NCBI RefSeq assembly: GCF_044704955.1 | Contig: NC_091977.1 | Span: 249,178,001-249,242,000, forward strand | Direction of reading: 5' to 3' | Source: Pristiophorus japonicus | Lineage: Eukaryota | Length of the DNA stretch: 64,000 nucleotides | Part shown: positions 7,501 to 60,071 of the stretch, piece by piece | How positions within the stretch are numbered: position 1 is the stretch's first letter | Layout: each line of letters starts with the position of its first letter | The notes under the pieces: generated by a model | Told to the model about the DNA's origin: nothing | The model's database searches: none | What the model saw: the letters and a program-made list of their open reading frames with translations, nothing else | Translations under genes and position numbers: made by a program

Positions 7501-7900
7501 AGGATGCATTTATTTGTAACACCTAAAGCTCTGATTGGGCCCCCTTGATGACAAGTCCTTATTGCTGATTGGTCCCCATGGAGGATAAGACACACACAGC
7601 AGTTTATTTTTGCAAAGTGTAATTCAAGCCATTCTGACTGCCGACTCCAGACAGATCAGAGCTCACTTAGAACAGACAGGGCTCACTCTCACGGGTTGCG
7701 ACTGTCATGTATTCTACTGTCATTGTAATCCATGAATAAACTGACCGAAGCTGTATACCGTGAGAACACTGACCACTAGATGGCGAACTTGTGGGAGACA
7801 CTCCTAACCTGGACTTTCAGGTATAAAAGGAGAAGCTCCACCCACCTTCATCACTTCAGTGCTGGAATAAAGGTTACTGGTCACAGAGTGACCTTCTCTC

Positions 7901-8060
7901 AACTGTCACAGGATGGGAGAGTGGAGAGCACCAGTTCCAACTGTCACAGGACTAGAGAGTGGAGAGCACCAGTTCAAACTGTCGCAGGAGAGAGTGGAGA
8001 GCACCAGTTCCAACTGTCACAGGAGAGAGTGGAGAGCACCAGTTCAAACTGTCACAGGAG
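7901..8060 (+). repeat. 35-38 bp tandem repeat AACTGTCACAGGA(nnn)GAGAGTGGAGAGCACCAGTTC(C/A), 4 full units plus a partial
   Basis: Directly visible; 2 full units plus a partial in copy 2 (about 42515-42609). Confidence 0.95.
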
Positions 8061-8910
8061 CATCCAGTCGTGCCCCGGTAACTGCCCCCAAAGGAAGTGG
8101 AGTGTGGGAAATTGCACTCCGCTTCCATTGAGGGGTGGTAAGGCCAATTCTGCGGCGGGAGCAGGACTTCCACGATGGGGGCTAAAATTCCCTGCCCCAG
8201 AAGGTTACCGCCTCCAAGATGGGAGCCTGTGCGGGGAGGCAGAGGGAAGTTGAGGGGAGACGGGGGGGGGGGGGGGGAAGTAGTGGAGGTGGGGGGTGGG
8301 GGGCGGAGAAACCCAGGACGGGGGACAGGAGGGGCCACATTGCAGCGGAGGTCTGGGGGGGGCGACGTGTGTTGGGGGCTCTGTGCCTCGGTGCGGGGAA
8401 TGTTCAGAGTGGGGTGGACGGGTTGACTGTGCAGATGGTGGTTGGTGAATGTGGTGTGGTTGGTGTCGCGGGGGCGTGGCTCCGGGATGGCCGGGGCTGG
8501 GGGCTCGACATCCGGGGGTGTTTGGCAATTGGGAAGGATTCTGACGGGACGGGGTGGATTGGGTGCGGGGGGAGTGTTCCCGGTGTTGGGTGGGTCCGGA
8601 GCCGGTGGGGGGGGCCACGCTCTTGGGATGGGGGGTGGGCTGTTGGGGCTGGGATAGTGAGAGACTTCTTCACTCAGGGAGTTGTTGGCCTGTGGGGTTC
8701 CCTGCCGCGGAGAGTTGTTGATGCCAGTTCATTGGATGTGTTCGGGAGGGAGTTGAATGTGGTCCATGCGGCTGGGGGTGTCGGGGGATGTGGAGGGGGC
8801 GTGGGGGGGAAGGTGCTGGGGTGGGTGATCAGCCATGATCTTGTTGAATGGCGGTGCAGGCTCGAAGGGCCAAATGGCCTACTCCTGCACCTATTTTCTA
8901 TGTTTCTATG
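7903..8910 (+). mobile_element. Composite non-autonomous retroelement: VNTR + MITE-like segment + internally deleted, A->G hypermutated CR1 (copy 1, inserted in Gypsy 5' LTR)
   Basis: Absent from the 3' LTR; ends in CR1 tail CTATTTTCTATGTTTCTATG; aligns to in-window CR1 copies with mostly A->G changes; second copy at 41679-42609. Confidence 0.85.
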
Positions 8911-11900
8911 GGCCTCGTGTGCATGTATACTGTATAGTAAGGACACATTATTGGCGACGAGAAACTTGGATTTGAACCACGCGAGCATGGCAACTAGCAG
9001 TACAGACGAGAGGTACTGTGTTGGTGATGACTGGGACGATTTTATTGAGAGACTACAACAAAGTTTCGTCACGAAGGAATGGCTGGGACAGGATTCGGCC
9101 GACAAACGCAGGGCTCATCTCCTGACGGTTTGTGGATTCAGGACATACTCCCTGATGAAGAACCTTCTAGCGCCAGAGAAGCTGACAGACAAGACTTTTG
9201 AAGAGCTCAGTAAGTTGATCGGGGAACACTTTAAACTGGCGAGCAGCATGTACATGGCGAGACATCGGTTTTACACACACCGGCGGCGAGAAGGGCAAAG
9301 CGTTCCAGACTTCGTGGCAGACCTCCGGCGACTGGCGAGCCTATGTAAGTTTCCAGATGCATGCAGAGCGGAGATTCTGCGAGACTTCTTTATTGAGGGC
9401 ATTGGGCAGGCTGGGGTTTTCAGGAAACTGATTGAGACCAAAGACTTGACCCTGGAAACGGCGGCTTTGATGACCCAGACATTTATTTCAGGGGAGGAAG
9501 AGACCAGAATGATGTTTGACAAAAATCTTGGTTTAAATGCAGCAAATGGACAGGGAGTCAACATTGTTAACGCGGCACACAGTTCTCCAGGCAGACAGGG
9601 GCAATCAGATATGCCCGAGCATGTAGTCGAACCCAAAGGGGGAATTCAAGAGACAATGGCTAGCTGAACAGCGATTCATGCCATCGCAAGGGACAATGCG
9701 GCCAGTAATGGAGCCATCAACACCTGTCAATGATGCACTAAAGGACAGTTACAGAGACAGTCAGAGATGATCGACTGGTGATGGACCTTTTGTTTCCAAC
9801 AATGGCTCATGTTGGAGGTGTGGAGGCAAACACAAAGCCAGAGCTTGCAGGTATCAGCAATATACCTGCAGAAACTGCAACATCAGCGGTCACTTGGCGC
9901 ATATGTGCAGGAAGCCTACTGCCAGGTTGATGTACGAGGAGGACGGGGATGATGTAAGCCCTACGACGCCAAATGGACACTGGGGGAAATCGTTGGAAGC
10001 TGAAGTTCAGTGAGTTCATACACCAGGATGCCACCGATAATGATGAAAGTGCTCCTCAATGGCATCCCAGTATCAATGGAGCTAGACACGGGGGCCAGCC
10101 TGTCCCTGATGAGTATCAAACATTTCGACAAGTTGTGGGCGTCCAAGGCCAGGAGGCCAAAATTATTGCCAATTGACGCACAGCTACAGACATATGCAAA
10201 GGAAATAATTCCAGTGCTCAGCAGCGCCACGGTAGTCGTGACCCACAAAGATTCGGAGAACAGATTGCCATTCTGGATTGTCCCGGGGGACGGTCCTGCA
10301 CTGCTGCGGAGGAGTTGGCTGTCTGTCATCAACTGGAAATGGGGCAATGTCAATGCAATTTCTTCTGTGGAGCGAGCATCGTGCTCACAGGTCCTGGACA
10401 AATTTGACTCACTATTTCAACCCGGCATTGGCACTTTCATGGGGACTGAGGTAATGATTCACATAAACCCGGACGCCAGGCCAGTGCATCACAAGGCCAG
10501 AGCGGTGCTGTATGTGATGCGGGAAAAGATAGAAGGCGAATTGGACCGCCTGCTGAGGGAAGGCATCATCTCGCCAGTCGAATTTAGTGACTGGGTGAAC
10601 CCGATCGTACCGGTGCTGAAGGCGGGGATGAGTCGGTCAGGATATGTGGTGATTACAAGGCCACCATCAATCGGGTGTCACTCCAGGACCAGTACTCACT
10701 ACCGAGAGCGGAGGACCTCTTTGCGATGCTATCCGGTGGCAAACTTTTTTCAAAATTGGACTTGACCTCAGCTTACATGACCCAGGAGCTGGCGATTGAG
10801 TCGAAGAAGCTGACCACCATCACGACACACAAGGGGTTGTTTGAGTACAACAGATGTCCGTTTGGAATTCACTCAGCCGCCGCGATTTTTCAACGAAATA
10901 TGGAAAGCCTCCTCAAGTCGATTCCAAGGACGGTGGTTTTTCAAGACAACATCCTCATCACGGGTTGTGATACTGAAGAACACCTCCGCAACCTGGAGGA
11001 GGTGCTACGCAGACTGGACCGGGTAGGTGTGCGACTGAAAAAGGTGAAGTGCATCTTCCTAGCTCCAGAGGTAGAATTCCTGGGGATGAGGGTAGCAGCA
11101 AACGGGATCAGACCTACTGCGTCCAAAACAGAAGCGATCCAGAGAGCACCCAGACCCTGTAACACGACGGAGCTGCATGCGTTCCTGAGGCTCCTGAACT
11201 ATTTTGGTAACTTTCTTCCCAAATTGAGCAGCTGTTAGAGCCACTACAAGCACTCCTACGCAAAGGTCGCGAATGGGTCTGGGGGGGCAGCCAGGAAAGG
11301 GCTTTTGATAGAGCACAAAATTTGTTCTGCTCCAACAATCTGTTAACACAATATGCCCCATGTAAGAAACTTGTTTTAACGTGTGACGCGTCGTCCTATG
11401 GGGTCGGGTGTGTGTTGCAGCATGTTAATGCCAAGGGTCAGTTACAGCCTGTAGCTTATGCCTCCAGAAGTCTGTCCCAGGCAGAATGGGGCTACGGGAT
11501 GGTAGAAAAGGAAGCGCTTGCATGTGTATATGCTGTAAAAAAAAAAAATGCACCAGTACCCGTTTGGCAGGAAATTTGAGCTGGAGACAGATCACAAACC
11601 CCCAACGTCCCTTTTGGCCGACAACAAGGCCATAAATGCAAATGCAAATGCATCGGCCCGCACACAGAGGTGGGCACTCATGTTAGCCACCTATGACTAT
11701 ACAATTCGGCACAGGCTGGGCACTGAAAACTGCACCAATGCACTCAGCAGGCTCCCACTAGCCACCACCGAGGGAGCAACCGAGCATGCTGCTGAGATGG
11801 TCATGGCTGTTGAAGCTTTCAAAAGCGAAGGCTCACCCGTGACAGCCCGTCAGATTAAAGTCTGAACAAATAAAGACCCGCTACTGTCTTTAGTCAAGAA

Positions 11901-13973
11901 ATGTGTCCTGAATGGGGACTGGGTAGCCACGTACGTGGCATGCCCTGAGGAATTGAAACCATTTCACAGGCGCAAGGATGAACTCTCGATTCAGGTCAAT
12001 TGCCTACTATGGGGAAACCGAGTAGTCATGCCCCAGATGGGCAGAGAGATGTTCATCAGAGAACTCCACAATGAGTACCCGGGCATTGTCATGATGAAGG
12101 CAATTGCCAGGTCACACGTTTGGTGGCTAGGGAGAGATGCAGACCTGGAACTTTGTGTTCGCATGTCCAACACGTGTGCCCAGCTGGGCAATGCGCTCAG
12201 GGAAGCCCCCCTTAGCCCCTGGTCCTGGCCCGCCAAGACATGGTCACACATCCATGTGGACTACGCAGGTCCTTACATGGGAAAAATGTTTTTGGTTGTA
12301 GTAGACGCCTACTCCAAATGGATCGAGTGTGACATTCTCAATTCAAGCACATCCTCTGCCACGGTAGAGAGTCTATGGACAATGTTCGTCGCCCATGGTC
12401 TACCGGAAGTCTTGGTCAGCAACAATGGCCCGTGCTTTACAAGCATTGAATTCCAGGACGTCATGACAGGAAATATCTAACCATATCAGAACGGCACCGT
12501 TCAAGCCGGCCTCAAATGGCCAGGCGGAACGAGCCGTGCAGATAATCAAACAGGGGATGCTCAGAATCCAAGGGGGTTCCCTACAAAGCCGCTTATCACG
12601 CCTTCTGTTAGCCATTGGATGCCGACCACACTCGCTCACATGGGTCCCACCCACAGAGCTGTTAATGAAAAGGACGCTCAAAACCAGGTTATCCCTTATA
12701 CACCACCATGAAAGAAATTGTTGAGAGCAGGCGCCAGTCACAATGTGACGACCATGACAGGAATGCGAGGGCGCGATGTTTTGATGTCAATGACCCTGTC
12801 TTTGTCCTCAACTATGCTGCAGGGCCTAAATGGCTTGCAGGCACCGTGATTGCCAAAGAGGGGAATAGGATTCTGGTAAACACGTGGATCAAACAAAAGG
12901 GAGGTTCAGCAACCCCACAGAAGAAGCAGAGGAAGAACACGATGTAGAGTTCACTCCTCCACAGGTGACCGAACACCAGAACCAAGAGGAGCAGAGTCCA
13001 GTCACGCTGGGCAGTCCGGACAGGCCTGAGGCACCGCAAACAGCAGACACTCAGGCCAGCGACCAACAACCGGAGCCCCAACTCAGGTGCTCTACAAGGG
13101 AGCGTAAACCACCAGAGAGACTTAACCTGTGATCCCAATAAGACTTTGCGGGGGGGGGGGGGAGGTGATGTCATGTATTCTCCTGTCATTGTAATCCATG
13201 TATAAACTGACTTAAGTTGTACACCGTGAGAACACTGACCGCTAGCTGGTGAACTTGTGGGAGACACGCCTAACCTGGACTTTCAGGTATAAAAGGGGAA
13301 GCTCCACCCACCTTCATCACTTCAGTGCTGGAATAAAGGTTACTGGTCACAGAGTGACCTTCTTTCAAGTACGGGCCTCGTGTGCATTTATACTGCATAG
13401 TAAGGACACATTGAAGACTTTCTCCCACCCCCACCAAAGAAGTTCCTGCCCTCACACCACCCCCCCTTTCCTGACCTTCCCCCCCACCCAAGTGCCTAAC
13501 CTCCCCCCAGCACAGGTTCCTGACTTCTCCCCCACCCTTTCGCCCTCCCCCATCTCTCTCTCTCTCTCTCTCTCTGTCTCCCCCTCCCCCCCTCTCTCCG
13601 TCTCCCCCCTTCTCTCTCTCCATCTGCAACTCTTGCTCTCTCTCTCATATTAGTGTCCCCAGCTCACCAGCTCGATGATAATAAGGCCCGAGGCCCAATA
13701 TCGGGTACGCTTCGGTCCTCACCATTCAGGCGCATGAATCATTCCTGGCGCCCCGCTTGCCCAAAAATGGCCAAGTATCTAGGCCAAGATTTTTAACATA
13801 TTATAAGACTGTATCAATATGACCACAATGGTGTCATTCAAAGTATATACAGCCCTTTCTGAGGAAGCTGCAAGAGGGTAAGTTAATTACCAGAAAGGAT
13901 ATTTACGAGAGTCAATAATATGCAGCTAATAATCATGGACTTCCTTTAAAATTATTGTCTTTAGATTGCTTAC

Positions 13974-15810: not shown

Positions 15811-16469
15811 CAGGCTGAACCCTCCCTCATCCAGCACCTCGGTACCTGGACTGTGCTGGATGAGGGATTTTGACGGATGAGGGGAGGTCATCGGCCCAGG
15901 GAGGGGTGTGGGGGGGGGCAGGGGGAGAGGTGGCCCAAGGTTGGGGGTGAGGGGAGTGGAGGAGTCGGCGGCCCAAGTGGGCCCTGAAGAGTTGGCGGGC
16001 CAGCGGGCCCCAAAGTGTCGGTGGGACCGAAGTGTCAGCGGGCCGGCCCGATTTCCCCCGCCCCAAGAGGAAGCACTGAGCGGAGGAGCGGCCTGCCAGA
16101 GTACGCAGCCCGCCTGGTCCGACCCCCAGAAGGGAGCACTGAGCGAAGGAGCGGCCAGTCTGAGGATGCGGCTCGCCGGCCTGACTCCCTGGAGGGTGCA
16201 CTGAGTGAGGAGCGACCAGCCCAAGGACTGTGGCTGCAGGAGTTCCAGCAGGGTGACGAGGCGGAGGCAGCCGATAACCCCGACTTCGAGGAGAAAGATT
16301 ATATTGGTGAGTACCCTGTACAAATTATTTTTTAATGTATGTTCTGAGATCGGGGAAAGAAGGATTTTGACCGGCACGTTCTGCATATGCGCCACCCGGA
16401 AGCCAGGAATGGAACCGGATGAAGGGTGGTGCCGGATAAGGGAGTCTCGGATAAGAGAGGTTCAACCTG
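15811..16469. mobile_element. Tc1/mariner-superfamily (pogo/Tigger-like) MITE
   Basis: TIR CAGGCTGAACCCTCCCTCATCC / GGATAAGAGAGGTTCAACCTG with TA on both flanks. Confidence 0.8.
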
Positions 16470-29082: not shown

Positions 29083-32000
29083 TGTTATGTCTCAAATAAA
29101 GCAATGTGACTGAGTACTGTAGACTTGAGTAAGTGTGACTTTAGTCCCTTTATTCTGACTCCAGAGTGCCTGCACAGCATGGGAGGCCCGCTTATATGCA
29201 GTGCTCCCAAGTTACGCTGGGATCCTTTGGGACTCCAACAGATGCGCCCTCTGGTGGCAGTAGAATGCTGGTTACAAGGTGTTGCATACATAACATCACT
29301 CTCCCCCGCACTCCCCCACACCAAAATCAATAGTTCACTTATTTACAGGATGAGACGATCTGGGGCTTTCTATTCCCTAGTCGATCGTCTCGGTACAAAC
29401 ATAGGTGCAGGTGATTTGGTTGGGCCTTCGCTGGGCTGCTGGGGATGATGAGTTTAGCTTCGTGGTCAACCGTGATGTTGGTTGCCATTTGTGTGTGTAT
29501 CGGAGGGTCGAAGTTGGTGGTGTCCTCTTCAGGTTGCTCGTGGCTGTCAGTGAATCGCAGTTTGGTTTGGTCCAAATGCTTTCTGCAAGTTAATCCATTT
29601 GCAAGTTTGACCTCAAACACCCTACTCCCTTCTTTGGCTATGACAGTGCCAGCAAGCCATTTGGGACCATGACCATAGTTGAGTACAAATACAGGGTCAT
29701 TGACTTCAATATCGCATGACAAATTTGCGCGATCATAGAAACATAGAAAATAGGTGCAGGAGTAGGCCATTCGGCCCTTCGAGCCTGCACCACCATTCAA
29801 TAAGATCATGGCTGATCATTCACCTCAGTACCTCTTTCCTGCTTTCTCTCCATACCCCTTGATCCCTTTAGCCGTAAGGGCTGTATCTCACTCCCCCTTA
29901 AATATATCCAATGAACTGGCATCAACAACTCTCTGCGGTAGGGAATTCCACAGGTTAACAACTCTCTGAGTGAAGAAGTTTCTCCTCATCTCAGTCCTAA
30001 ATGGCTTACCCCTTATCCTAAGACTATGTCCCCTGGTTCTCGACTTCCCCAACATCGGGAACATTCTTCCTGCATCTAACCTGTCCAATCCCGTCAGAAT
30101 TGTATATGTTTCTATGAGATCCCCTCTCATCCTTCTAAACTCCAGTGAACACAGGCCCAGTCGATCCAGTCTCTCCTCATGTCAGTCCTGCCATCCCGGG
30201 AATCAGTCTGGTAAACCTTCGCTGCACTCCCTCAATAGCAAGAACGTCCTTCCTCAGATTAGGAGACCAAAACTGAACACAATATTCCAGATGAGGCCTC
30301 ATTAAGGCCCTGTACAACTGCAGTAAGATCTCCCTGCCCCTACACTCAAATCCCCTAGCTATGAAGGCCAACATACCATTTGCCTTCTTCACCGCCTGCT
30401 GAACCTGCATGCCAACTTTCAATGACTGATGTACCATGACACCCAGGCCTCACTGCACCTCCCCTTTTCCTAATCTTCCGCCATTCAGATAATATTCTGC
30501 CCTCCAGTTTTTGCCCCCAAAGTGGATAACCTCATATTTAACCACATTATACTGCATCTGCGATGTGTTTGCTCACTCACCTAACCTATCCAAGTCCTCT
30601 GCAGCCTTTTAGCGTCATCCTCACAGCTCTCACTGCCACCCAGCTTAGTGTCATCTGCAAACTTGGAGAAATTACACTCAATTCCCTCATCCAAATCATT
30701 AATGTACATTGTAAATAGCTGGGGTCCCAGCACTGAGCCCTGCGGTACCCCATTAGTCACTGCCTGCCATTCTGAAAAGGACCCGTTTATCCCGACTCTC
30801 TGCTTTCTGTCTGCCAACCAGTTCTCTATCCACATCAGTACATTACCCCCTATACCATGTGCTTTCATTTTGCACACCAATCTCTTGTGTGGGACCTTGT
30901 CAAAAGCCTTTTGAAAGTCCAAATACACCACATCCACTGGTTCTCTAATGTTACATGCTTTGTTGATGCCGCCTGCCCTCGACATGATCATGGAGATCAG
31001 GGTGGACTAGAGAGAGCCTTGCTTTGAGTGCCCTTTTCACGAGCAGTTCGGCAGGGGGATCCCCGGTGAGCGAGTGCGGTAGCTGAGCAGGACTCAGGAC
31101 AGGCAGGTCTGCAGGGAGCCTTCCGACACGCGTTTCAAGCTTTGCTTGATGCTTGATGGTTCTGCCTGGCTGTTGTTGTAGGCTTGAATGGGGCAGATGT
31201 GACGTGCTTGATCCCATTGTGGGTCATGAATTCCTTGAATTCAGCGCTGGTGAAGCACGGCCCAATGTCGCTGATAAGGCAAACATGGCTCGTAGGCTTT
31301 CGATGGTGGCAGTGGATGTGCTTACAGACATTATTACACACTCAATCCATTTTAAATAAGCATCCACAACAACCAAAAACATTTTGCCTAGAAACGGGCC
31401 AGCAAAGTCAATGTGGATCCTAGACCACGATTTGGAGGGCCATGACCACAAACTTAGCGGTGCCTCCCTGGGTGCATTGCTCAGTCGAGGGCAAGTGTTG
31501 CATTGGCACACGCAAGACTCCAAATCTGAGTCGCTGTCGGGCCACCACACATGGGATCTGGCTATAGCTTTCATCATTACTATGCCTGGGTGGGTACTGT
31601 GTAGGTTGCGTATGAGTAATTCCCTGCCTTTCTTAGGCAAAACCACGCGATTACCCCACAAAAGACAGTCCGCCTGTATGGACATTTTGTCTTTGCGCCA
31701 CTGGAACGGCTTGATCTCATCATGCATCTCCGCTGGACCAGCTCCCATGGAGGACACAGTTTTTTTTTTTTACAAGGGACAGTAAAGGATTCTGGCTGGT
31801 CCAGGTCCTGATCTAGCGGGCCGTAATGGGTGACTTTTCGTTTTCAAATGCATCCATCACCAAGAACAAGTCTGCAGGCTGTGCCATTTCCAATCCGGTG
31901 GTGGGCAATGGTAGCTGACTGAGAGCATCAGCACAGTTCTCTGTGCCTGGCCTGTGGCGAATTACATAGTTATATGCAGACAACGTGAGCGCCCATCTTT

Positions 32001-34741
32001 GGATGCAAGCAGAGGCATTGGTATTAATACCTTTGCTCTCTGAGAATAGCGATCTGAGCAGCTTATGGTCAGTTTCTAATTCGAACTTAAGCCCTAACAG
32101 ATACCGGTACATTTTTTTTACCCCGTAAACGCATGCCAGAGCTTCTTTTTCAATCATGCTGTAGGCCCTTTCGGCCTTGGACAAACTCCTGGACACATAA
32201 GCAACCGGACACATAAGCAATGTTCCCGATTCGTTTGCTTGTTGTACACACACCCGACCCCATACGAAGACGCATCGCAAGCTAGCACTAAACGTTTACA
32301 TGGGTCATACAGAATAAGCAGTTTGTTGGAACATAACAGATTTCTGGCTTTCTCAAAAGCAATCTCTTGTGATTTCCCCCATAACCCAGTCATCTCCCTT
32401 GCGTAGCAACACATGTAGAGGTTCTAGCAAGGTGCTTAACCCGGGTAGGAAATTACCAAAATAATTGAGGAGTCCCAGGAACGACCGCAGCTCCGTCACA
32501 TTCTGTGGTCTCGGCGCGTTCTTGATGGGCTCTGTCTTGGCATCGGTAGGCCTGATGCCGTCCGCCACGATTCTTCTCCCTAAGAACTTGACCTCTGGCG
32601 CCAGGAAAACACACTTCGAGCATTTCAATCTGAGTCCCATACGATCAAGCCAACTTAGAACCTCTTCCAAGTTCTGTAAGTGTTCGATGGTGTCCCGACC
32701 TGTGATCAATATGTAATCCTGGAAAACCACGGTGCGCGGAACAGATTTTAGCAGACTTTCCATGTTCCTTTGAAAAATAGCCGCGGCTGATTGAATCCCA
32801 AACGGGCATCTATTGTAGATGAACAGATCTTTGTGCGTGTTGATGCAGGTGAGGCCTTTCGAAGATTCCGCCAGCTCCTGCGTCATGTAGACCGAGGTCA
32901 GGTCCAACTTGGTGAATGTCTTCCCTCCTGCCAGTGTCGCAAATAGGTAGTCTGTCTTGGTTAGCGGGTACTGGTCCTGCACCAATAAACGGTTAATCGT
33001 TACTTTATACTCTCCACTAATTCTGATCGTGCCATCACCCTAGAGAACCGGAGCAATCGGACTGGCCCACTCGTTGAACTCAACTGGCGCGATGATGCCT
33101 CTCGTTGCAGCCTATCCAGCTCAATCTCCACTTTCTCTCGCATCATGTATGGCACCGCACATGCCTTGTGTTGGATGGGTCATGTACCGGGAACCAAGTG
33201 TAGCTGCACCTTCGCCCCAGAGAAATTTCCGATACCTGGCTCAAACAACGACGGGAACTTGTTCAAAACCTGGGCACATGAGGCGTCGTCGACGGACGAA
33301 AGCACTCGGATGTCATCCCAGTTCCAGCGGATTTTTCACAGCCAGCTTCTGCCGAACAGTGTGGGGCTATCTCCTGGTACAATCCATCGTGGTAGTTCGT
33401 GCACCACTCCATCATAGGAGACTTTTACTGCTGCATTGCCAAATACAGGGATCAGGTCTTTAGTTTAAGTTCTCAGCTTGGTATGAATAGGGCTCAGCTT
33501 GGGCCTTTGTGCCTTGTTGCACCACAGCCTCTCGAAGACCTTTTTGCTCATGATAGACTGACTCGTACCCGTGTCCAATTCTATGGATATTGGAATTCTG
33601 TTCAGTTCAACTTTTAACATGATCGGTGGACATTTCGTGGTGAAGGTGTGTACCCTGTACACTTCTGACTCCTCGGTTCAAGTCTCTACTTCAGTTTGAT
33701 CCGCCATGGATCGGTCTTCCTCTGCAACGTTGTGGTTTGCAGCTCATCTGCACATTCGCTGGAGGTGTCCCATTGTTTCACAGCCTTTGCACGCATAGTG
33801 TTTGAAGCGACATTGATGGGCTCGATGATTGCCTCCGCAGTGCCAACAAGGTGTTAATTGCCTCGCATTCACACTTGATGGCGGACTCTGAGTCATCTGA
33901 GGTCGTGCAGCTGCAGGCATGTATGTTCTGCCATATGCATTCCTGCCTGACAATGACATTACTTTGTGTACAGTACTTGCCGATGCATCACTATGCTGCG
34001 AAATTTGTTTGGTGTTATCGCTGGTGGACATAAATGCCTGGGCTATCATTATGGCTTTGCTCAGGTGCAAAGGATAACCTCATGGCCAATGCCAAGCAAA
34101 AAAAACTCTCTTAGCATTTGCTCCAGGAATCCACCGAATTCGCAAAGTCCTGCAAGGTGCCTTAGTTCAGCGACGTAGCTCGCCACTTCCTGGCCTTCAA
34201 ACCGTTGACATGGATAAAATCGATACTTTGCCATCAGAACGCGCTCCTTTGGATTTAGGTGCTCCCGGACCAGCGTACATAGTTCTTCATACGATTTGGT
34301 TGTTGGTTTCACCGGAGCAAGAAGATTCTTCATGAGGCCATAGGTTGTTGCCCTGCAGATGGTGAGGAGGATCGCCCTTCGTTTGGCAGCGTTCTCATTC
34401 CCTTCCAGCTCATTGGCCAAGTAGTATTGGTCGAGTCACTCCACAAAGGCTTCCCAATCGTCCCTTTCTGAGAATTTCTCTGGGATACCAACAGTTCTCT
34501 GCATTTGAGAGTGATGGTTCATTATCTATTACTCGACGCCAGTTGTTATGTCTCAAATAAAGCAATGTGATTGATTAAGTGTGACCTTAGTCTCTTTATT
34601 CTGACTCCAGAGTGCCCTCACAGTATGGGAAGCCCGCTTATATGCAGTGCTCCCAAGTGATGCTGGGATCCTTTGGGACTCCAACAGATGCACCCTCTGG
34701 TGGCGGTAAAATGCTGGTTACAAGGTGTTGCATACATAACA
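29083..34741 (-). mobile_element. Gypsy LTR retrotransposon, decayed (LTRs 34544-34741 and 29083-29295)
   Basis: TGTTATG...CATAACA LTRs; perfect AGGTG TSD; PBS TGGCGTCGAG; gag zinc knuckles, LDTGT protease, RT, RNase H and integrase fragments. Confidence 0.95.
29734..30946 (-). mobile_element. 5'-truncated CR1 inserted in the Gypsy integrase 3' region
   Basis: VYLDFQKAFDKVPH, GVPQGSVLGP, FADDTK; (TTTCTATG) tail. Confidence 0.9.
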
Positions 34742-40887: not shown

Positions 40888-42760
40888 TGGCCTAGAAATT
40901 CAGCTGCTCATCACCTATTTTCTGGTCGCTAAACAGCCTCCGAAGCTTTCAATACAGCAAGTATAGTGTACACATTCCTGGCTGGCAAAGATAGAAAAAG
41001 GTAGATGCACTCATGATAGGAGCACACATGGGGATCAGTTTAACAATGGATGGAGGCAAGATGATTCTTGCTCAGAAATACCGAGAAAGACTGTCCAGCA
41101 AATCTGTAAGTTTACATTGTGATTGGAGCTGGGTGTGCAAGATCCATGCGTTGGGAATGGTTCCAAATGCATCTTTCTAAGGTCATTTTCTTAATTCTAG
41201 GCTACCAAGTATGGTTGGGAAGGCTGATATAAATTAAGTAATTAGAAATAAGTTAGGAGAAACAATGAGTAATTCTTATGCCACTCTGAAAAGATAAAAT
41301 GGACTATAACACTTTTTACACTGTTTAACTCTGTTTAGAGCATGAGGAACATCTATTGCCCATCTATCTCGAAATCCCAGATGAGGTACATGTACTCCTT
41401 TGGAATAAATCTTTCCTCCGGTTCTTTCCAGGTACCACGGAGGACCTGTCAGTCTGCAGCAGATCATTGCACAAAACAGGTGACTGATACCTTAACTGCA
41501 ACAGCAAGCAACATCACTGTCCCCTTAGACAACAGGAAAGAAGAAGATTGAGCACGAGGTTTCCATCGAGTAACAGGATTCCAAAAATCCAGGCTGTCAC
41601 TGCTGTGCTACAGATGGCTTTCCAATTGCCAGTCACTTCAAGACTGACTGCATGCTTTTAGTACATGAGCAGCCCACACATAGAAACATAGAAACATAGA
41701 AAATAGGTGCAGGAGTAGGCCATTTGGCCCCTCGAGCCTGCACCGCCATTCAACAAGATCATGGCTGATCACCCACCCCAGCACCTCCCCCCCACACCCA
41801 CCGACCCCCCCAGCCACAAGGACCACATCCAACTCCCTCCCGAACACATCCAAAGAACTGGCATCAGCAACTCTCCACGGCAGGGAACCCCACAGGCCAA
41901 CAACTCCCCGAGTGATGAAGTCTCTCACAATCCCAGCCCCAAACAGCCCACCCCCCATTCCAAGAGCGTGCCCCCCCCACCCGGCTCCAGACCCACCCAA
42001 CACCGGGAACACTTCCCCCCGCACCCAACCTGCCCCGTCCCGTCAGAATCCTTCCCAAATGCCGAACATCCCCGGATGTCGAGCCCCCAGCCCCGGCCAC
42101 CCCAGAGCCACGCCCCCGCGATGCCAACCACACCACATCCACCAACCGCCATCTGCTCAGTCAACCCGTTCATCCCACTCTGAACATTCCCCGCACCGAG
42201 GCACGAGCCCCCAGGCCCGCCCCTCCAACACACTTCGCGCCCCCCCAGACCTCCGCTGCAATGTGGCCCCTCCTGTCCCCGGCCCTAGGTTTCTCCGCCC
42301 CCCCACCTCCACCACTCTCCCCTCCATCCCCCTCAGCCTCCCCGCACAGGCTCCCATCTTGGGGGCGGTAACCTTCTGGGGACAGGAATTTTAGCCCCCA
42401 GCGTGGAAGTCCTGCTCCCGCCGCAGAATTGGCCTTACCACCCCTCAATGGAAGCAGAGTGCAATTTCCCACACTCCACTTCCTTTGGGGGCAGTTACCA
42501 GGGCATGACTGGATGCTCCTGCGACAGTTGGAACTGGTGCTCTCCACTCTCTCGTCCTGTGACAGTTGGAACTGGTGCTCTCCACTCTCCAGTCCTGTGA
42601 CAGTTTGAATATATATATACGGGTTGTGAAATTCTCCACATCAGCCACCGTGTCTTGGAAGCTGCGAGACACATTCCAATGATTCCAACCATCTCTCATG
42701 CACCAAAAGCTCAGAGGATGTGAACGGAAGTGAGCTCATTCTCCAGCCAGCAGTAGTATT
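40888..42760 (+). mobile_element. Old Harbinger transposase remnant hosting composite element copy 2
   Basis: GGCCTAGAAATT start; LSSGSFQ...CQSAADHCTKQVTD fragment. Confidence 0.5.
41679..42609 (-). mobile_element. Composite VNTR/MITE/A->G hypermutated CR1 element (copy 2)
   Basis: Reverse complement is colinear with 7903-8910, including the GGGAAGGA|TTCTGACGGG deletion junction and tail. Confidence 0.88.
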
Positions 42761-55232: not shown

Positions 55233-58200
55233 GGAGCTGGATTTTCCTGTTAGTGCCTTGGAGGGGCAGCAATGACAGCGGTAAGCATTTCCCGGCAGGC
55301 GGCCAGATTCCAGCTCCCTGCCGGGACTTTCGGTGCCGGTTTCGACTGGGTGCAGAGCACTACCACCTGGAAGAGGCGAGCCTCTGGTTGAGACACGGGC
55401 TTGATTTTGGGCTGCCGCCTGATCCATAGCGCTCCATAGAGCACTGTGCTGGGACCGACTGAAAGCGCGAGTTAATTATTGGAAATGTTTTTGTTGGTTT
55501 TGTGATGTATTTGCAGCCATACTCTGTACCATGCATTGTACAATGTAATTACATGTAATAGCCAACAGATGGGGAAAGCCCAGGAGGCAAACATTACTGC
55601 ACCTCGTGCCGCCTCCCTATATAAAGCAGGCTCCCCCTGCAGTGCTCACTTTTGGAGTTTACATCAAACCTGAAGGTCACAAGGTGATCAGCTCCAGCAT
55701 GGGCCACGTCTCATTTATTATAGTGATAAGCATATGTATCAACTGGCGACAAGGATGGGATACTAACATGCAGCTATGGCCACCGTTGACTACATCGAGC
55801 GATATTGCGTCGGGGAACACTGGGATGACTTAATTGACCGGCTGGATCAATGCTTTGTCGCGAAAGACTTAGGAGCCGCGAATGCCAGCAAACGCAGAGC
55901 CGTCCTCCTCACGGTCTGCGGATCACGGACATACACACTGATCAAGGACCTACTGGCCCCGACGAAACCCGCTGAGAAAAGTTACGAAAAACTGTGCGAG
56001 CTAGTTCGAAATCACCTAAAGCCGAAACGTAGTGTGCTCATGGCGAGGTACTGTTTCTACACCCACCGGCGCGGAGTAGACCAAGATGTGGCAGCATTCA
56101 TCGCTGAGCTAAGGCGTCTTGCTGGGCCATGCAAATTCGGGACAGTTCTTGAAGAAATGTTAAGAGACGACTTTGTTTTGGGAATCGGGCACGAAGGGAT
56201 TTTCCGCAAATTGCTAGCGGAGGAAGACTTGGACCCAGCCAAAGCCACTTAATTGCTCAGGCATGCATGGCCAGAGAGGAAGAAACAAAGCTACTCTACT
56301 CTCAACTTCGGAATCACCTGGGGCCAAACGTAGTGAATAAGCTAAATTCGTCAGCAGACAGGAGAAGTGCCCCCAGCTGGGCTAATGCGACCTCTGCTTG
56401 ACCTGAGATGATTCACTCACCACAACAATGGACTAATGCGAAGAGATCAGTACCTGTGAATGCAAGTCCATCAGCAAGCTGTTGGCACTGTGAAGGGGCT
56501 CATCGTGCAAACCAGTGCAGGTTCAAACAATATGTCTGCAAGAATTGCTCAATGATGGGGCAGCTCCAACGAATGTGTAAATGTGCTACAACTCGATACG
56601 TAGTGGAGCATGGGAGGTCAAGTGTAGATCCTGAGGATCGCGCAGAGGTGACCGAGGAGGAAGAGGTACATGGGGTGCACGTGCATGAAGTGCACACCTT
56701 TACCAACAAGAGTCCCCCGATTATGATGAACGTTAAACTGAACAGCATACCGGCACCGATGGAACTGGACACGGGTGCGAGCCAATCGATCATGGGCCAG
56801 AAGGCCTTCGAAAAGTTATGGGCAAACAAGGCACACAGGCCCAAGCTGTGCCCGATCGACGCGAAGCTGCGCACCTACACTAAAGAGATTATCCCGGTCC
56901 TCGGAAGTGCAATGGTTCAGGTGCTGTATGATGGTTCTGTGCATAAACTGCCACTATGGATTGTTCCCGTTAACGGGCCCACGCTGCTTCACAGAAGCTG
57001 GCTACGGAACTCTAACTGGAAATGGGGCGATGTAAAAGCATTATCGTCGGTGGAGAAAGCCACGTATGCGGAGGTCTTCGACAAGTTTCCGTCACTGTTC
57101 CAGCCTGGCATCAGCAGCTTCACAGGGGCCAAGGTGACAATTCACCTCAGCCCAGATGCGAGACCCATTCACCACAAGGCCAGAGCGGTCCCTTACATGA
57201 TGTGAGAGAAAGTAGAAGTTGAGCTAGATCGGCTTCAGCACGAAGACCAGTACCCGCTACCCAAGGCGGAGGATTTGTTCGCGACCCTGTCGGGTGGAAA
57301 GCTGTTTTTGAAACTGGACCTCACCTCGGCGTACATGACCCAAGAGCTGGCGGAATCGTCCAAGAAGCTGACATACATAAACACACACAAGGGGATGTTC
57401 GCATACAACCGGTGCCCCTTTGGGATCCGTTCAGCGGCTGCGATCTTCCAACGAAACATGGAGAGCCTGCTGAAATCTGTCCCGGAAACAGTCGTCTTCC
57501 AAGACAACATCTTGATCACCGGACACGACACCGATGAACACCTCCATCATGTGGAAGAGGTGCTACACCGACTAAATCGAATAGGTCTAAGGTTGAAACA
57601 AACCAAATGCGTCTTCTTGGCACCAGAGGTGGAATTCCTGGGAAGGAGAATCGCAGCAAATGGCATTAGACCCTCAGACTTCAAGACGGAGGCGATCCAG
57701 AAGGCCCCGAGACCACGCAACACGATGGAGCTGAGCTCGTTCCTAGGACTACTGGACTACTTTGGTAACTTTCTGCCTGGGCTGAGCACTTTGCTTGAAC
57801 CATTACTGTTCCGTTAGGGTGATGACTGGGTCTGGGGTAAAAACCAAGGAACTGCCTTCGAGAAGGCCAGAAACTTATTGTGCTCAAACAAACTACTGGT
57901 GCTGTGATATCCCTGTTGGCACCTTGCCTTGGCGTGCGATGCGTCATCCTACGGGATCGGGTGTGTGCTTCAGCAAGCGAATGTGTTGGGTAAGCTCCAA
58001 CCTGTAGCGTATGCATCCCGCAGCCTTTCCAAGGCCGAAAGGGGGTACAGCATGGTCAAAAAGGAGGCCCTAGCTTGTGTATACACGGTAAAAAAGATGC
58101 ACCAGTATCTATTTGGCCAGCGGTTCGAACTAGAAACCGACCACAAGCCGCTCACGTTGTTATTCTCTGAGAGCAAAGGCATTAATACTAATGCCTCAGC

Positions 58201-60071
58201 TCGAATTCAGAGGTGGACATTAACGCTGTCGGCTTACGACTACACGATCTGCCACAGACCAGGCACGATAACTGCGCAGATGCGCTCTGTCGGCTCCCGC
58301 TCGCTACCACCGAGGGTGAAGCAGAGCAACCCGCGGAACTAGTCATGGCCATGGAAACCTTCGAGGGCAAAGGGTCACCCGTCATGGCGCATCAGATAAG
58401 AATCTGGACCAGCCAAGACCCACTGCTGCCCTAGGTGAAAAACTATATATTAAGTGGAAACTGGGCAACAACGTCAAGAGAGATGCATGGCGATTTTAAG
58501 CCATTTCACTGGCGCAAGGACGAGCTGTCCGTCCAGGCCGACTGCATTTTGTAGTGAAATTGCGTAGTCCTGCCCAAGAAGGGCAGAGATTTATTTGTCA
58601 AGGATCTCCATAGCACACACCCTGGCATCGTAATGATGAAAGCTATTGCGAAATCGCACTTGTGGTGGCCCGGCATCGACGCAGACTTATAGAGTCGTGC
58701 GTACGCCAGTGCAACACGTGCGCGCAAATCAGCAACACACCCAAGGAAGCCCCTCTGAGCCTCTGGTCCTGGCTCTCCAAACCCTCGTCCCATATCCACG
58801 TAGACTACGCAGGTCCCTTTCTAGGAAAAATGTTCCGAGTTGTAATTGATGCTTATTCGAAATGGATCGTGTTGTAACGGCATAAAGCATGTCAGGTCGG
58901 CCCCGTTCAAACCAGCCTCCAAAGGCCAAGCTGAAGGGGCAGTACAGATCATAAAGCAGGGCATGCAGCGAGTGACAGAAGTCCCATTGCAGACCCGTCT
59001 GTCTCGCGTGCTGCTTGCATATCGGGCGAGGCCCCACTCACTCACAGGGGTTCCGCCCACCGAACTCCTCATGAAGAGGACCCTCAAAACAAGGTTGTCC
59101 CTCGTGCACCCGGTTTTAAGTGAGATTATCAAAAACCGGCGTCTTAAGCAATGTACATATCATGACCGCAACTCTGTAACACGTTGTATCAATGTCTATG
59201 ACCCTACTTTCGTGTTGAACTTTGGTACGGGCCCCAAGTGGCTTGCAGGCCAAAGAGGAGAGTAGGGTACTCGTGGTATGACTCACTAATGGCCAAACCT
59301 GCAAGAAGCACATCGATCAAACCAAATTGAGGTTCACCGATGATCCAGAACCGCTGGATGACTGCAGTGACATCGACTTCCAACCACAAGCAACAGAACC
59401 GGCAGTTCACCAAGAGACAGAACCCATCGCACCGGACAGTCCGACCAGAGCCGCAGCACCACAAGGCAGCGACATTCCGGTCAGGCCGCCCACACCCAAC
59501 TCAGACACTCAATCAGAGGGCGCAGATCCCCGGTCAGGCTTGACCTGTAAACCACATCTGAGACTTGGGGGGGAAGTGTTGTTATGTATTTGCAGCCATA
59601 CTCTGTACCATGCATTGTCCCATGTAATTACATGTAATAGCCAACAGATGGGGAAAGCCCGGGAGGCACACATTACTGCACCTCGTGCTGCCTTCCTGTA
59701 TAAAGCAGGCTCCCCCTGCAGTGCTCACTTTTGGAATTTACATTAAACCTAAAGGTCACAAGGTGATCAGCTCCAGCATGGGCCACGTGTGATTTATTAT
59801 AGTGATGAGCATATATTTCAGATTTTATTTCTTTTCTGCTCAGGCCTCTCTTAGTGTGCTCCGAGGCCTGCATTTTTGCTCGGGATTTTCAGTTGCTGAG
59901 CCAGCCTTGCACCCTAAGAGAGGTGTGCAACACCTTCCTTAGCGCTCCGCCTCACACTCAGGGCACAGCTGATGAATTTTGCTGACTGATGCGCAAATTG
60001 TTCCCACGCGCAAACTTTATCGCCCCGCCGCCATTACCACCCCGAAATGAGCAGAACCAAAAATCCAGTCC
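55233..60071. mobile_element. Harbinger-type MITE split by the Gypsy insertion
   Basis: GGAGCTGGATTTT / AAAATCCAGTCC termini flanking the provirus. Confidence 0.55.
55501..59820 (+). mobile_element. Gypsy LTR retrotransposon, decayed (LTRs 55501-55741 and 59580-59820)
   Basis: TG...CA LTR pair; TSD GGTTT/GATTT; PBS TGGCGAC; PPT; gag at 55776, LDTGA, RT, RNase H, integrase; internal deletions near 57245 and 58870. Confidence 0.93.

What the first reader, a model, noticed from the sequence alone, without database searches (positions are those of the whole stretch)
7903..8910. SVA-like composite architecture: VNTR head + MITE-like hairpin segment + deleted CR1
Seen, four parts: (1) 35-38 bp tandem units at 7901-8060; (2) a non-CR1 segment at 8060-8217 with a hairpin GGAAGTGGAGTG...CACTCCGCTTCC and a Harbinger-TIR-like GGGGCTAAAATT; (3) CR1 inter-ORF/endonuclease start at 8218-8538; (4) joined at GGGAAGGA|TTCTGACGGG, the CR1 RT C-terminus and 3' UTR. 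About 2.4 kb of ORF2 is missing, estimated from in-window CR1 pieces. No Pol III A/B boxes are evident and the head is not visibly A-depleted. Inference: a CR1-mobilised non-autonomous element, not a classical tRNA SINE; its true 5' end may be longer.
Basis: partly seen in the sequence, partly recalled or inferred. Interest (0 to 1): 0.7.

Follow-up and report, generated by a model that had tools for sequence, protein, structure and literature searches.

The report
Edited-RNA retroposon that seeds giant satellites
This stretch is one of at least several hundred copies of a protein-less jumping element whose retrotransposon part has two thirds of its A letters changed to G, likely by the RNA-editing enzyme ADAR before the RNA was copied into inherited DNA, and whose tandem-repeat head likely grew after insertion into satellite blocks of 150,000 to 340,000 bases at several chromosomal sites.

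Summary
The four modules are real and travel together: a dispersed family (733 exact junction matches, about 3% diverged) of satellite head, 158-bp segment and a CR1 LINE lacking 2.36 kb. The segment is an unedited piece of a MITE-like family; GGGGCTAAAATT is not its terminus. The 'VNTR' is a major satellite (175,758 unit matches). Four of eight giant arrays traced (148-338 kb, partly read) end in this element, and their flanks rejoin into one host repeat (C17: 4-bp duplication, 19 intact relatives), so each is one insertion whose head likely grew in place. A second, unedited CR1 family (323 junctions) carries the same satellite reversed. Not an SVA, not a tRNA SINE. This scan reported the edited family, and three copies beside giant arrays, before on other DNA; the flank test, MITE origin and second family I did not see in the notes shown. 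Editing enzyme, promoter and source locus are inferred.

The parts
7900..8059 (+). 5'-truncated satellite head, 4.4 units of a 35-38 bp (usually 37/38 bp) repeat that also forms 75-340 kb arrays elsewhere in the genome
8060..8217 (+). Unedited subterminal fragment of a dispersed MITE-like family (68-79% to 20 relatives), cut about 25 bp short of that family's right end
8085..8135 (+). Hairpin inherited from the MITE-like family
   Evidence: z -7.3; the arms are also in the family alignment
8218..8538 (+). CR1 inter-ORF region and start of the ORF2 endonuclease, A>G hypermutated (84 of 126 A in the family consensus)
8539..8843 (+). CR1 end of ORF2 and 3' UTR after a 2.36-kb deletion, A>G hypermutated
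8844..8910 (+). Spared CR1 3' end: stem-loop and (TTTCTATG)n tail, likely the recognition signal for the CR1 reverse transcriptase
   Evidence: 2 of 17 A changed in the last 78 nt against 59 of 81 before, p 4e-6; fold z -2.2
7703..7902 (+). Left part of the host LTR into which this copy inserted (continues at 8911-8949; 4 bases lost, no duplication, microhomology at both ends)
8911..8949 (+). Right part of the interrupted host LTR; partner LTR at 13169-13412
41678..42609 (-). Second copy of the same family, 2.4 satellite units, same junctions and same A>G pattern

Best explanation
This is one copy of a young family of non-coding retroposons made of a satellite head, a MITE-like fragment and an internally deleted CR1 LINE in which 64% of the adenosines read G, likely because ADAR hyper-edited one founder RNA that was then reverse-transcribed into the germ line; the family is likely copied in trans by CR1 proteins through its spared 3' end, and some copies' heads likely grew in place into satellite blocks of 148-338 kb. 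Steps: (1, inferred) a 5'-truncated CR1 landed near the end of a MITE that lay beside a satellite array; (2, inferred) a transcript reading out of the array paired its CR1 part with an antisense CR1 and was edited; only the CR1 part changed (shown); (3, shown) the edited, deleted form is shared by all copies sampled, so editing came before amplification; (4, inferred) CR1 ORF2 primes on the unedited 3' stem-loop and tail and copies towards the 5' end, stopping at random (random 5' ends, tails of 1-3 units and short or absent duplications are shown); (5, shown) four giant arrays and the body behind each sit as one insert in a host repeat; (6, inferred) such arrays grew after insertion by unequal exchange or repeat-driven copying, because cDNAs of 150-340 kb are not known for LINEs (own knowledge).
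For: A>G 145 of 167 mismatches against 5 G>A, 2 T>C, 4 C>T; 5' neighbour U 31/34, A 56/73, C 28/45, G 30/69 (p 6.7e-6), the order U>A>C>G given for human ADAR1 and ADAR2 (PMC3113232, passages). A is ancestral: other CR1 subfamilies hold A at 65, 66 and 76 of 84 sites, and three ordinary parent copies show 1 A>G in 8-11 mismatches. The segment has no bias: 5 A>G, 6 G>A of 49. All 35 junction-picked, 14 seg/CR1-junction-picked and 31 first copies are edited; 733 exact matches to the edited junction against 5 with the parental A, and these 5 are otherwise edited. The G-rich form stands in contigs of 4 of 4 public runs laid, from 3 studies, so it is no assembly error. A young CR1 with open ORF1 (esterase) and ORF2 (endonuclease + RT) and the same 3' end exists. 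Arrays on C17, C20, C10 and C11 end in the body. C17 flanks are adjacent in 19 intact copies of a host LINE, with a 4-bp overlap; C10 flanks are adjacent in the MITE consensus; C20 flanks share about 30 bp of a host tandem repeat and C11 flanks continue in one relative. These four bodies are more diverged (3.6-6.1%) than 77 dispersed copies (median 2.9%, p 0.002).
Against: No unedited source locus and no antisense partner were found. The 3' neighbour shows no significant G preference (p 0.37). No edited body with satellite on both sides, which a master inside an array would give, was among 13 loci. Four of eight giant arrays (C3, C14, C19, C11:142.9 Mb) do not end in this element; one of them (C14) belongs to a second family, three are unexplained, and C19 holds a diverged unit that may be older. 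Arrays were read only in part: 57 of 147 kb (C17), 67 of 185 (C20), 24 of 279 (C10), 52 of 338 (C11); their lengths rest on the assembly. The higher divergence beside arrays is rich in transversions (43 ts, 50 tv against 667, 449) and may reflect local error or mutation, not age. Mobilisation by CR1 and the promoter are untested.
Confidence: 0.8

Rival explanations
1. The A>G burst came from a process other than ADAR: an error-prone reverse transcription under unbalanced nucleotides, or slow strand-biased DNA mutation or GC-biased conversion at a source locus.
For: No 3'-G preference; no source hairpin found; a small A>G excess continues among copy-private changes in the CR1 part (53/4345 against T>C 43/8787, p 9e-6).
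Against: One change type on one strand, 64% of A, with C, G and T almost untouched (18 of 464); the 5'-neighbour order of ADAR; the change stops at the CR1 boundary and spares the adjoining MITE piece, which an RT error or a local DNA bias would not do. APOBEC gives G>A on the sense strand (PMC4866542, passages), the opposite direction, and A is ancestral.
Confidence: 0.07
2. The giant arrays did not grow in place: a short-headed copy took up a ready-made block of satellite from another array by ectopic recombination or break-induced copying, or a very long read-through RNA was reverse-transcribed whole.
For: Head lengths have a long tail (1 unit to at least 5.3 kb); all arrays share unit variants; arrays without the body exist as possible donors.
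Against: Each array has its own mix of unit variants, as local homogenisation would give; bodies beside arrays are more diverged and share few private changes with dispersed copies, so they are not the main masters. Whole-RNA copying of 150-340 kb is far beyond known LINE products (own knowledge). In either form the retroposon still fixes where a new array appears.
Confidence: 0.25
3. The satellite unit is itself a promoter (a monomer promoter as in mouse L1, or a degenerate Pol III A/B-box pair formed across two units), so that any copy with a few units can be a master.
For: One-mismatch A-box-like and B-box-like words lie in the units; several weak subfamilies point to more than one master; two unrelated CR1 families carry the satellite as head.
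Against: The second family carries the satellite in the opposite orientation, which fits transcription of arrays on both strands or read-through better than a directed promoter; no strict B box; 5' ends fall at any phase. The GC-rich, CpG-gaining edited body could also act as promoter.
Confidence: 0.25
4. One reading: an SVA-like composite with a defined, not yet seen 5' module and a MITE terminus inside.
For: Modular build, tandem repeat, LINE-derived 3' part.
Against: No shared sequence 5' of the satellite in 7 long dispersed heads, one 5.3-kb head and 4 giant arrays; the repeat is terminal; the TIR-like word is internal.
Confidence: 0.05

Closest known systems
Stringent-type SINE/LINE pairs of cartilaginous fish: HE1/HER1, SINEX-1_CM/CR1-2_CM (PMC3747384, passages and table rows seen)
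   Same: Non-coding element that shares the 3' end and short-repeat tail of a CR1-clade LINE and likely borrows its enzymes.
   Different: No tRNA or 5S head; the head is an open-ended satellite; the CR1 part is 690 bp from two distant places and hypermutated.
VNTR composite retrotransposons SVA, LAVA, PVA, FVA (PMC4432496, abstract seen)
   Same: Modular, non-autonomous, with 30-50 bp repeats that change length at the DNA level.
   Different: There the VNTR is central, behind an Alu-like 5' part, L1-mobilised and hominoid-specific; here it is terminal, a genomic satellite, and reaches hundreds of kb.
ADAR hyper-editing of repeat RNA, including chicken CR1 and elephant shark (PMC5625713, two passages; neighbour rules PMC3113232, passages)
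   Same: Dense sense-strand A>G with 5'-G avoidance in CR1 sequence.
   Different: Those are RNA events; here the pattern is fixed in DNA and founded a family.
APOBEC-edited LTR retrotransposons fixed in vertebrate genomes (PMC4866542, passages); A-to-G hypermutated retroviral DNA (only a reference title seen, Kim et al. 1996 in PMC4189041; avian cases named in earlier notes, not read)
   Same: A host deaminase rewrites a retroelement in one round and the product integrates.
   Different: G>A on cDNA of LTR elements, mostly dead ends; here A>G on RNA of a non-LTR element, and the product went on to amplify.
Satellites grown from tandem repeats inside Ogre LTR retrotransposons of Lathyrus sativus (PMC7004042, abstract and Discussion read); other TE-derived satellites (PMC9659126, passages)
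   Same: A dispersed mobile element carries a short array that now and then expands into a long satellite block.
   Different: Carrier here is a non-LTR, non-autonomous element; the array is its 5' end; single insertions are bracketed by rejoinable flanks; two carriers use the same satellite in opposite directions.

Membership tests
SVA-type VNTR composite | Central VNTR between fixed 5' and 3' modules | tested here: not met
   No module 5' of the repeat in any 5' end read
SVA-type VNTR composite | Alu-like 5' domain, poly-A tail, L1 partner | tested here: not met
   Tail is (TTTCTATG)n of CR1 in the 31 copies listed; no 7SL/Alu match in Rfam
tRNA/5S SINE | Pol III head with A and B (or C) boxes | tested here: not met
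   No tRNA, no Rfam family, no strict B box; only one-mismatch words
CR1-dependent non-autonomous retroposon | 3' end and tail shared with a CR1 LINE | tested here: met
   young intact CR1 with the same end
CR1-dependent non-autonomous retroposon | Dispersed copies with fixed 3' and random 5' ends, unrelated flanks, short or no target duplication | tested here: met
   (the automatic duplication count there includes chance 4-mers and is not used as a number)
CR1-dependent non-autonomous retroposon | Mobilised in trans by CR1 ORF2 | not testable with these tools
   Needs a cell assay
ADAR hyper-edited RNA (signature) | Clustered A>G on the transcribed strand only | tested here: met
   145 of 167 mismatches; window copy 134 of 181
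ADAR hyper-edited RNA (signature) | 5' neighbour U>A>C>G | tested here: met
   0.91, 0.77, 0.62, 0.43; p 6.7e-6 (rule)
ADAR hyper-edited RNA (signature) | Weaker 3' G preference | tested here: inconclusive
   G 0.70, A 0.70, C 0.62, U 0.54; p 0.37
ADAR hyper-edited RNA (signature) | A long double-stranded partner covering the edited part | tested here: inconclusive
   Source locus not found; the second family's CR1 is only 67% alike and lacks the inter-ORF match
MITE (source of 8060-8217), PIF/Harbinger type | Short non-coding dispersed element with terminal inverted repeats and TWA duplication | tested here: inconclusive
   1,318 first-look candidates, 40 scored; sharp shared right end in 16 of 19 and a shared left end about 750 bp away, imperfectly inverted, often next to TA; duplications not counted, partner transposase not sought
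TE-carried satellite that expands in place | Same unit in short arrays within dispersed elements and in long arrays bracketed by one insertion site | tested here: met
   interiors read only in part

The most novel reading that the evidence does not exclude
One transcribed satellite and CR1 form a self-spreading loop: arrays are read out on both strands into neighbouring CR1 tails, CR1 copies these RNAs to new sites, the heads regrow into 100-kb satellite blocks, and these blocks become new sources. One arm of the loop was rewritten by ADAR in a single RNA, and this rewriting (which removes pairing with, and silencing through, the abundant parent CR1 and adds CpG/G-rich sequence) is what let it amplify: host RNA editing created a successful mobile element and, through it, new satellite loci.
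Probability: 0.3. Interest if true: 0.9.

Novelty: new variant of a known kind. Interest (0 to 1): 0.78.

Why it matters
If right, RNA editing, usually seen as a non-heritable brake on repeats, was written into the germ line and founded a family of many hundreds of copies. Such families would be mis-dated and mis-named by repeat libraries, since one round gives about 25% divergence. The family also gives a within-genome series from 1 unit to about 9,000 units at insertion sites whose empty state can be rebuilt from host repeats. That makes the old question of how a satellite reaches new chromosomes, and which sites let it grow, directly testable, with a second, unedited carrier of the same satellite as a built-in control.

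Tried and rejected
tRNA or other structured-RNA head: none. Satellite unit derived from the young CR1, the MITE or the second family's body: scores within those of shuffled units. Unedited deleted precursor: 5 of 5 and 14 of 14 hits with a parental A are edited copies with one back-change. CR1-element chimeras made by template switching: the 13 loci with a CR1 tail next to satellite are 12 young unedited CR1 insertions (11 with satellite on both sides) and one short tail piece. A giant-array copy as master of the family: its private changes are mostly not shared. Splicing through editing-made sites as cause of the deletion: possible in letters, but the would-be acceptor has no pyrimidine tract; a 2-nt microhomology jump is simpler. 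One rare-variant pattern gave only 4 hits and did not locate arrays. Sequencing runs: no RNA holder listed; this says nothing on expression. Whether the host LTR element is Gypsy was not confirmed by a family scan; the name is recalled. Paper searches that gave no report of an ADAR-edited founder of a retroposon family or of this element: editing; shark, CR1, satellite; satellites and composites. The library lacks most subscription papers, Dfam and Repbase were not available, and no supplements were read, so a repeat-library entry for the family cannot be excluded.

Full report
Observation. The four parts are in the sequence as described. The copy sits in one LTR of an LTR retrotransposon: 7703-7902 and 8907-8949 match 13169-13412; four host bases are lost and there is no duplication. 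A second copy lies at 41678-42609 on the minus strand. The genome (G000) has 5.9 Gb; that it is a shark is an inference from the repeats and from earlier notes, not a result of mine.

A family. A search with 8040-8230 gave 2,014 first-look candidates; the 40 scored were 98-100% identical. All 30 fetched run to the CR1 tail. The 22-mer across the deletion junction has 733 exact matches and its reversed control none; this is a lower bound for copies that reach the junction. Copies differ from the consensus by a median 2.9% (77 copies). 3' ends are fixed with 1-3 tail units; 5' ends fall anywhere: of 30 copies taken in chromosome order (these include the two window copies), 19 reach the satellite, 2 stop at the segment start, 3 inside it and 6 inside CR1. 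This is the pattern of target-primed reverse transcription (established knowledge).

The CR1 part is hypermutated. Of 20 unedited CR1 loci extended upstream, 6 hold both pieces whole; in L050 and L061 the gap is 2,358 bp. With symmetric scoring against the parent consensus, 145 of 167 mismatches are A>G, 64% of 226 aligned A; G>A 5, T>C 2, C>T 4. The window copy alone gives 134 of 181. The edited share by 5' neighbour is U 0.91, A 0.77, C 0.62, G 0.43 (p 6.7e-6), the order reported for human ADARs (PMC3113232, passages); the 3' neighbour is not significant (p 0.37). A is the ancestral state: three other CR1 copies of more distant subfamilies hold A at 65, 66 and 76 of 84 sites, and the endonuclease start LCLNARSIRNKVDEL reads LCLGAGSVQSGVDGL in the element. 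The change begins eight bases into CR1, spares the MITE piece (5 A>G, 6 G>A) and spares the 3' end (2 of 17 against 59 of 81, p 4e-6), which LINEs of the stringent type need (PMC3747384, passages). Every copy examined carries the pattern, so it came once, before amplification; a small later A>G excess in the CR1 part hints at further light editing. Contigs of 4 of 4 runs laid, from 3 studies and two organism labels, hold the G-rich form, one of them across the junction; the best DNA run may be the assembly's own sample. I did not find the unedited source or its antisense partner.

The middle segment. It is 68-79% like the right subterminal part of a dispersed family of about 750 bp (1,318 candidates, 40 scored, 20 aligned). 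The hairpin belongs to that family. Its true right end lies about 25 bp beyond the point where CR1 takes over, and GGGGCTAAAATT aligns to an internal word. Imperfect inverted ends next to TA suggest a Harbinger-type MITE (class by recall).

The head is a satellite. One 21-mer of the unit has 175,758 exact matches. Dispersed heads followed to their 5' end were 1.3-2.8 kb (7 of 7) and 5.3 kb, all ending inside the repeat in unrelated DNA. A rare unit variant (114 hits, first 100 listed) marked eight large clusters, and I located both ends of all eight. Four end 3' in the edited body: C17 148 kb, C20 186 kb, C10 280 kb, C11 338 kb (the last with part of the body deleted). For C17 the 5' and 3' flanks are neighbours in 19 intact copies of a host LINE, overlapping by the four bases AAAG, and their translations join in frame. 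For C10 they are neighbours in the MITE consensus. For C20 they share about 30 bp of a host tandem repeat, and for C11 one relative continues across; these two are weaker. So array plus body is one insert. Every stretch and probe read inside these four was satellite, but only 9-39% of each was read. The bodies are more diverged than dispersed copies (3.6-6.1%, p 0.002) and are not the main masters. Growth after insertion is the simplest reading; uptake of a block from another array remains open.

Arrays without this body. C14 (199 kb) begins with the satellite joined in reverse to a different, unedited CR1 that starts at the end of ORF1, runs 3.3 kb to its tail and has a second CR1 3' end behind it. 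That junction has 323 exact matches, and 30 of 30 loci fetched continue into the same CR1. So a second family carries the satellite the other way round. C3 (227 kb), C11:142.9 Mb (75 kb) and C19 (a diverged unit) have neither body at the ends read and are unexplained.

Mechanism. Shown: modules, co-occurrence, spectrum and context, spared end, single-insert status at C17 and C10, a young CR1 with open ORF1 and ORF2 and the same tail. Inferred: ADAR as enzyme, an antisense CR1 as partner, CR1 ORF2 as mobiliser, transcription out of satellite arrays, growth in place. Whether the deletion came before or after editing cannot be told.

Comparison. It works like a stringent CR1-dependent SINE and, loosely, like SVA (PMC4432496, abstract), but fails the defining tests of both. 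The editing resembles hyper-edited CR1 RNA (PMC5625713, two passages) and, in logic, APOBEC-edited LTR elements fixed in genomes (PMC4866542, passages; PMC2873906, passages, treats A>G clusters as RNA events). The satellite link resembles Ogre-derived satellites (PMC7004042, abstract and Discussion). Searches listed no paper on an edited founder of a retroposon family or on this element; subscription papers, repeat libraries and supplements were not seen.

Earlier notes of this scan. After I had measured the A>G pattern, searches showed that at least nine notes on other pieces of this genome describe the same edited family; after I had traced the arrays, one search showed one note that places three copies at ends of arrays over 100 kb. 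These are not independent support. A look-up by the head's sequence gave nothing.

Verdict. Observation confirmed; reading partly right; new variant of a known kind; interest 0.78.

Noticed in passing
G000 C14:121.50 Mb (L317), C8 (L328), C1 (L211/L329), C17 (L220/L330), L331-L360: Second satellite-headed family: reversed satellite + unedited CR1 from the end of ORF1 through ORF2 (67% to the first family's parent) + a second CR1 3' end; 323 exact junction matches; one copy heads a 199-kb array.
   Followed up: partly
L213, L214, L218, L221, L222 (inside satellite arrays): Very young full-length CR1 copies, up to 99.5% alike, with open ORF1 (GDSL/SGNH esterase) and ORF2; likely a currently active subfamily and candidate mobiliser.
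   Followed up: partly
G000 C19:11.36-11.51 Mb (L185, L186, L196, L242): Array of a diverged, heterogeneous form of the same satellite unit with no retroposon body at either end; may be the oldest array.
   Followed up: partly
G000 C3:299.87-300.10 Mb and C11:142.86-142.93 Mb: Giant arrays without either body; the C3 array ends in a reading frame that looks like a hAT-type transposase (recalled, not tested), the C11 array in another G-rich tandem repeat.
   Followed up: partly
G000 C11:14.93 Mb (L260): The body behind the 338-kb array has lost the MITE piece and the first 85 bp of CR1 through a short shared word between satellite and CR1.
   Followed up: no
window:7703-13412: LTR retrotransposon with two LTRs differing at 15 of 243 places; related pol-like pieces at 31159-33873 and 55796-58877.
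   Followed up: partly
window:61918-62973: GC-rich 70-bp tandem array of about 14.5 copies (TRF score 1336) with CCCGAC/GAGACCC sub-repeats.
   Followed up: no
window:45796-45966 and 16057-16228: GC-rich 41-bp (4.1 copies) and 63-bp (2.8 copies) tandem repeats.
   Followed up: no
run X6 (organism B) laid on window:8040-8910: Contigs under a second organism label hold the edited body, one across the deletion junction; the family may be older than a species split, or the labels may be one species.
   Followed up: no
L004/L031, L087, L093: Copies with an unedited CR1 3' end in inverted orientation directly beside them; possible present-day ADAR substrates.
   Followed up: no
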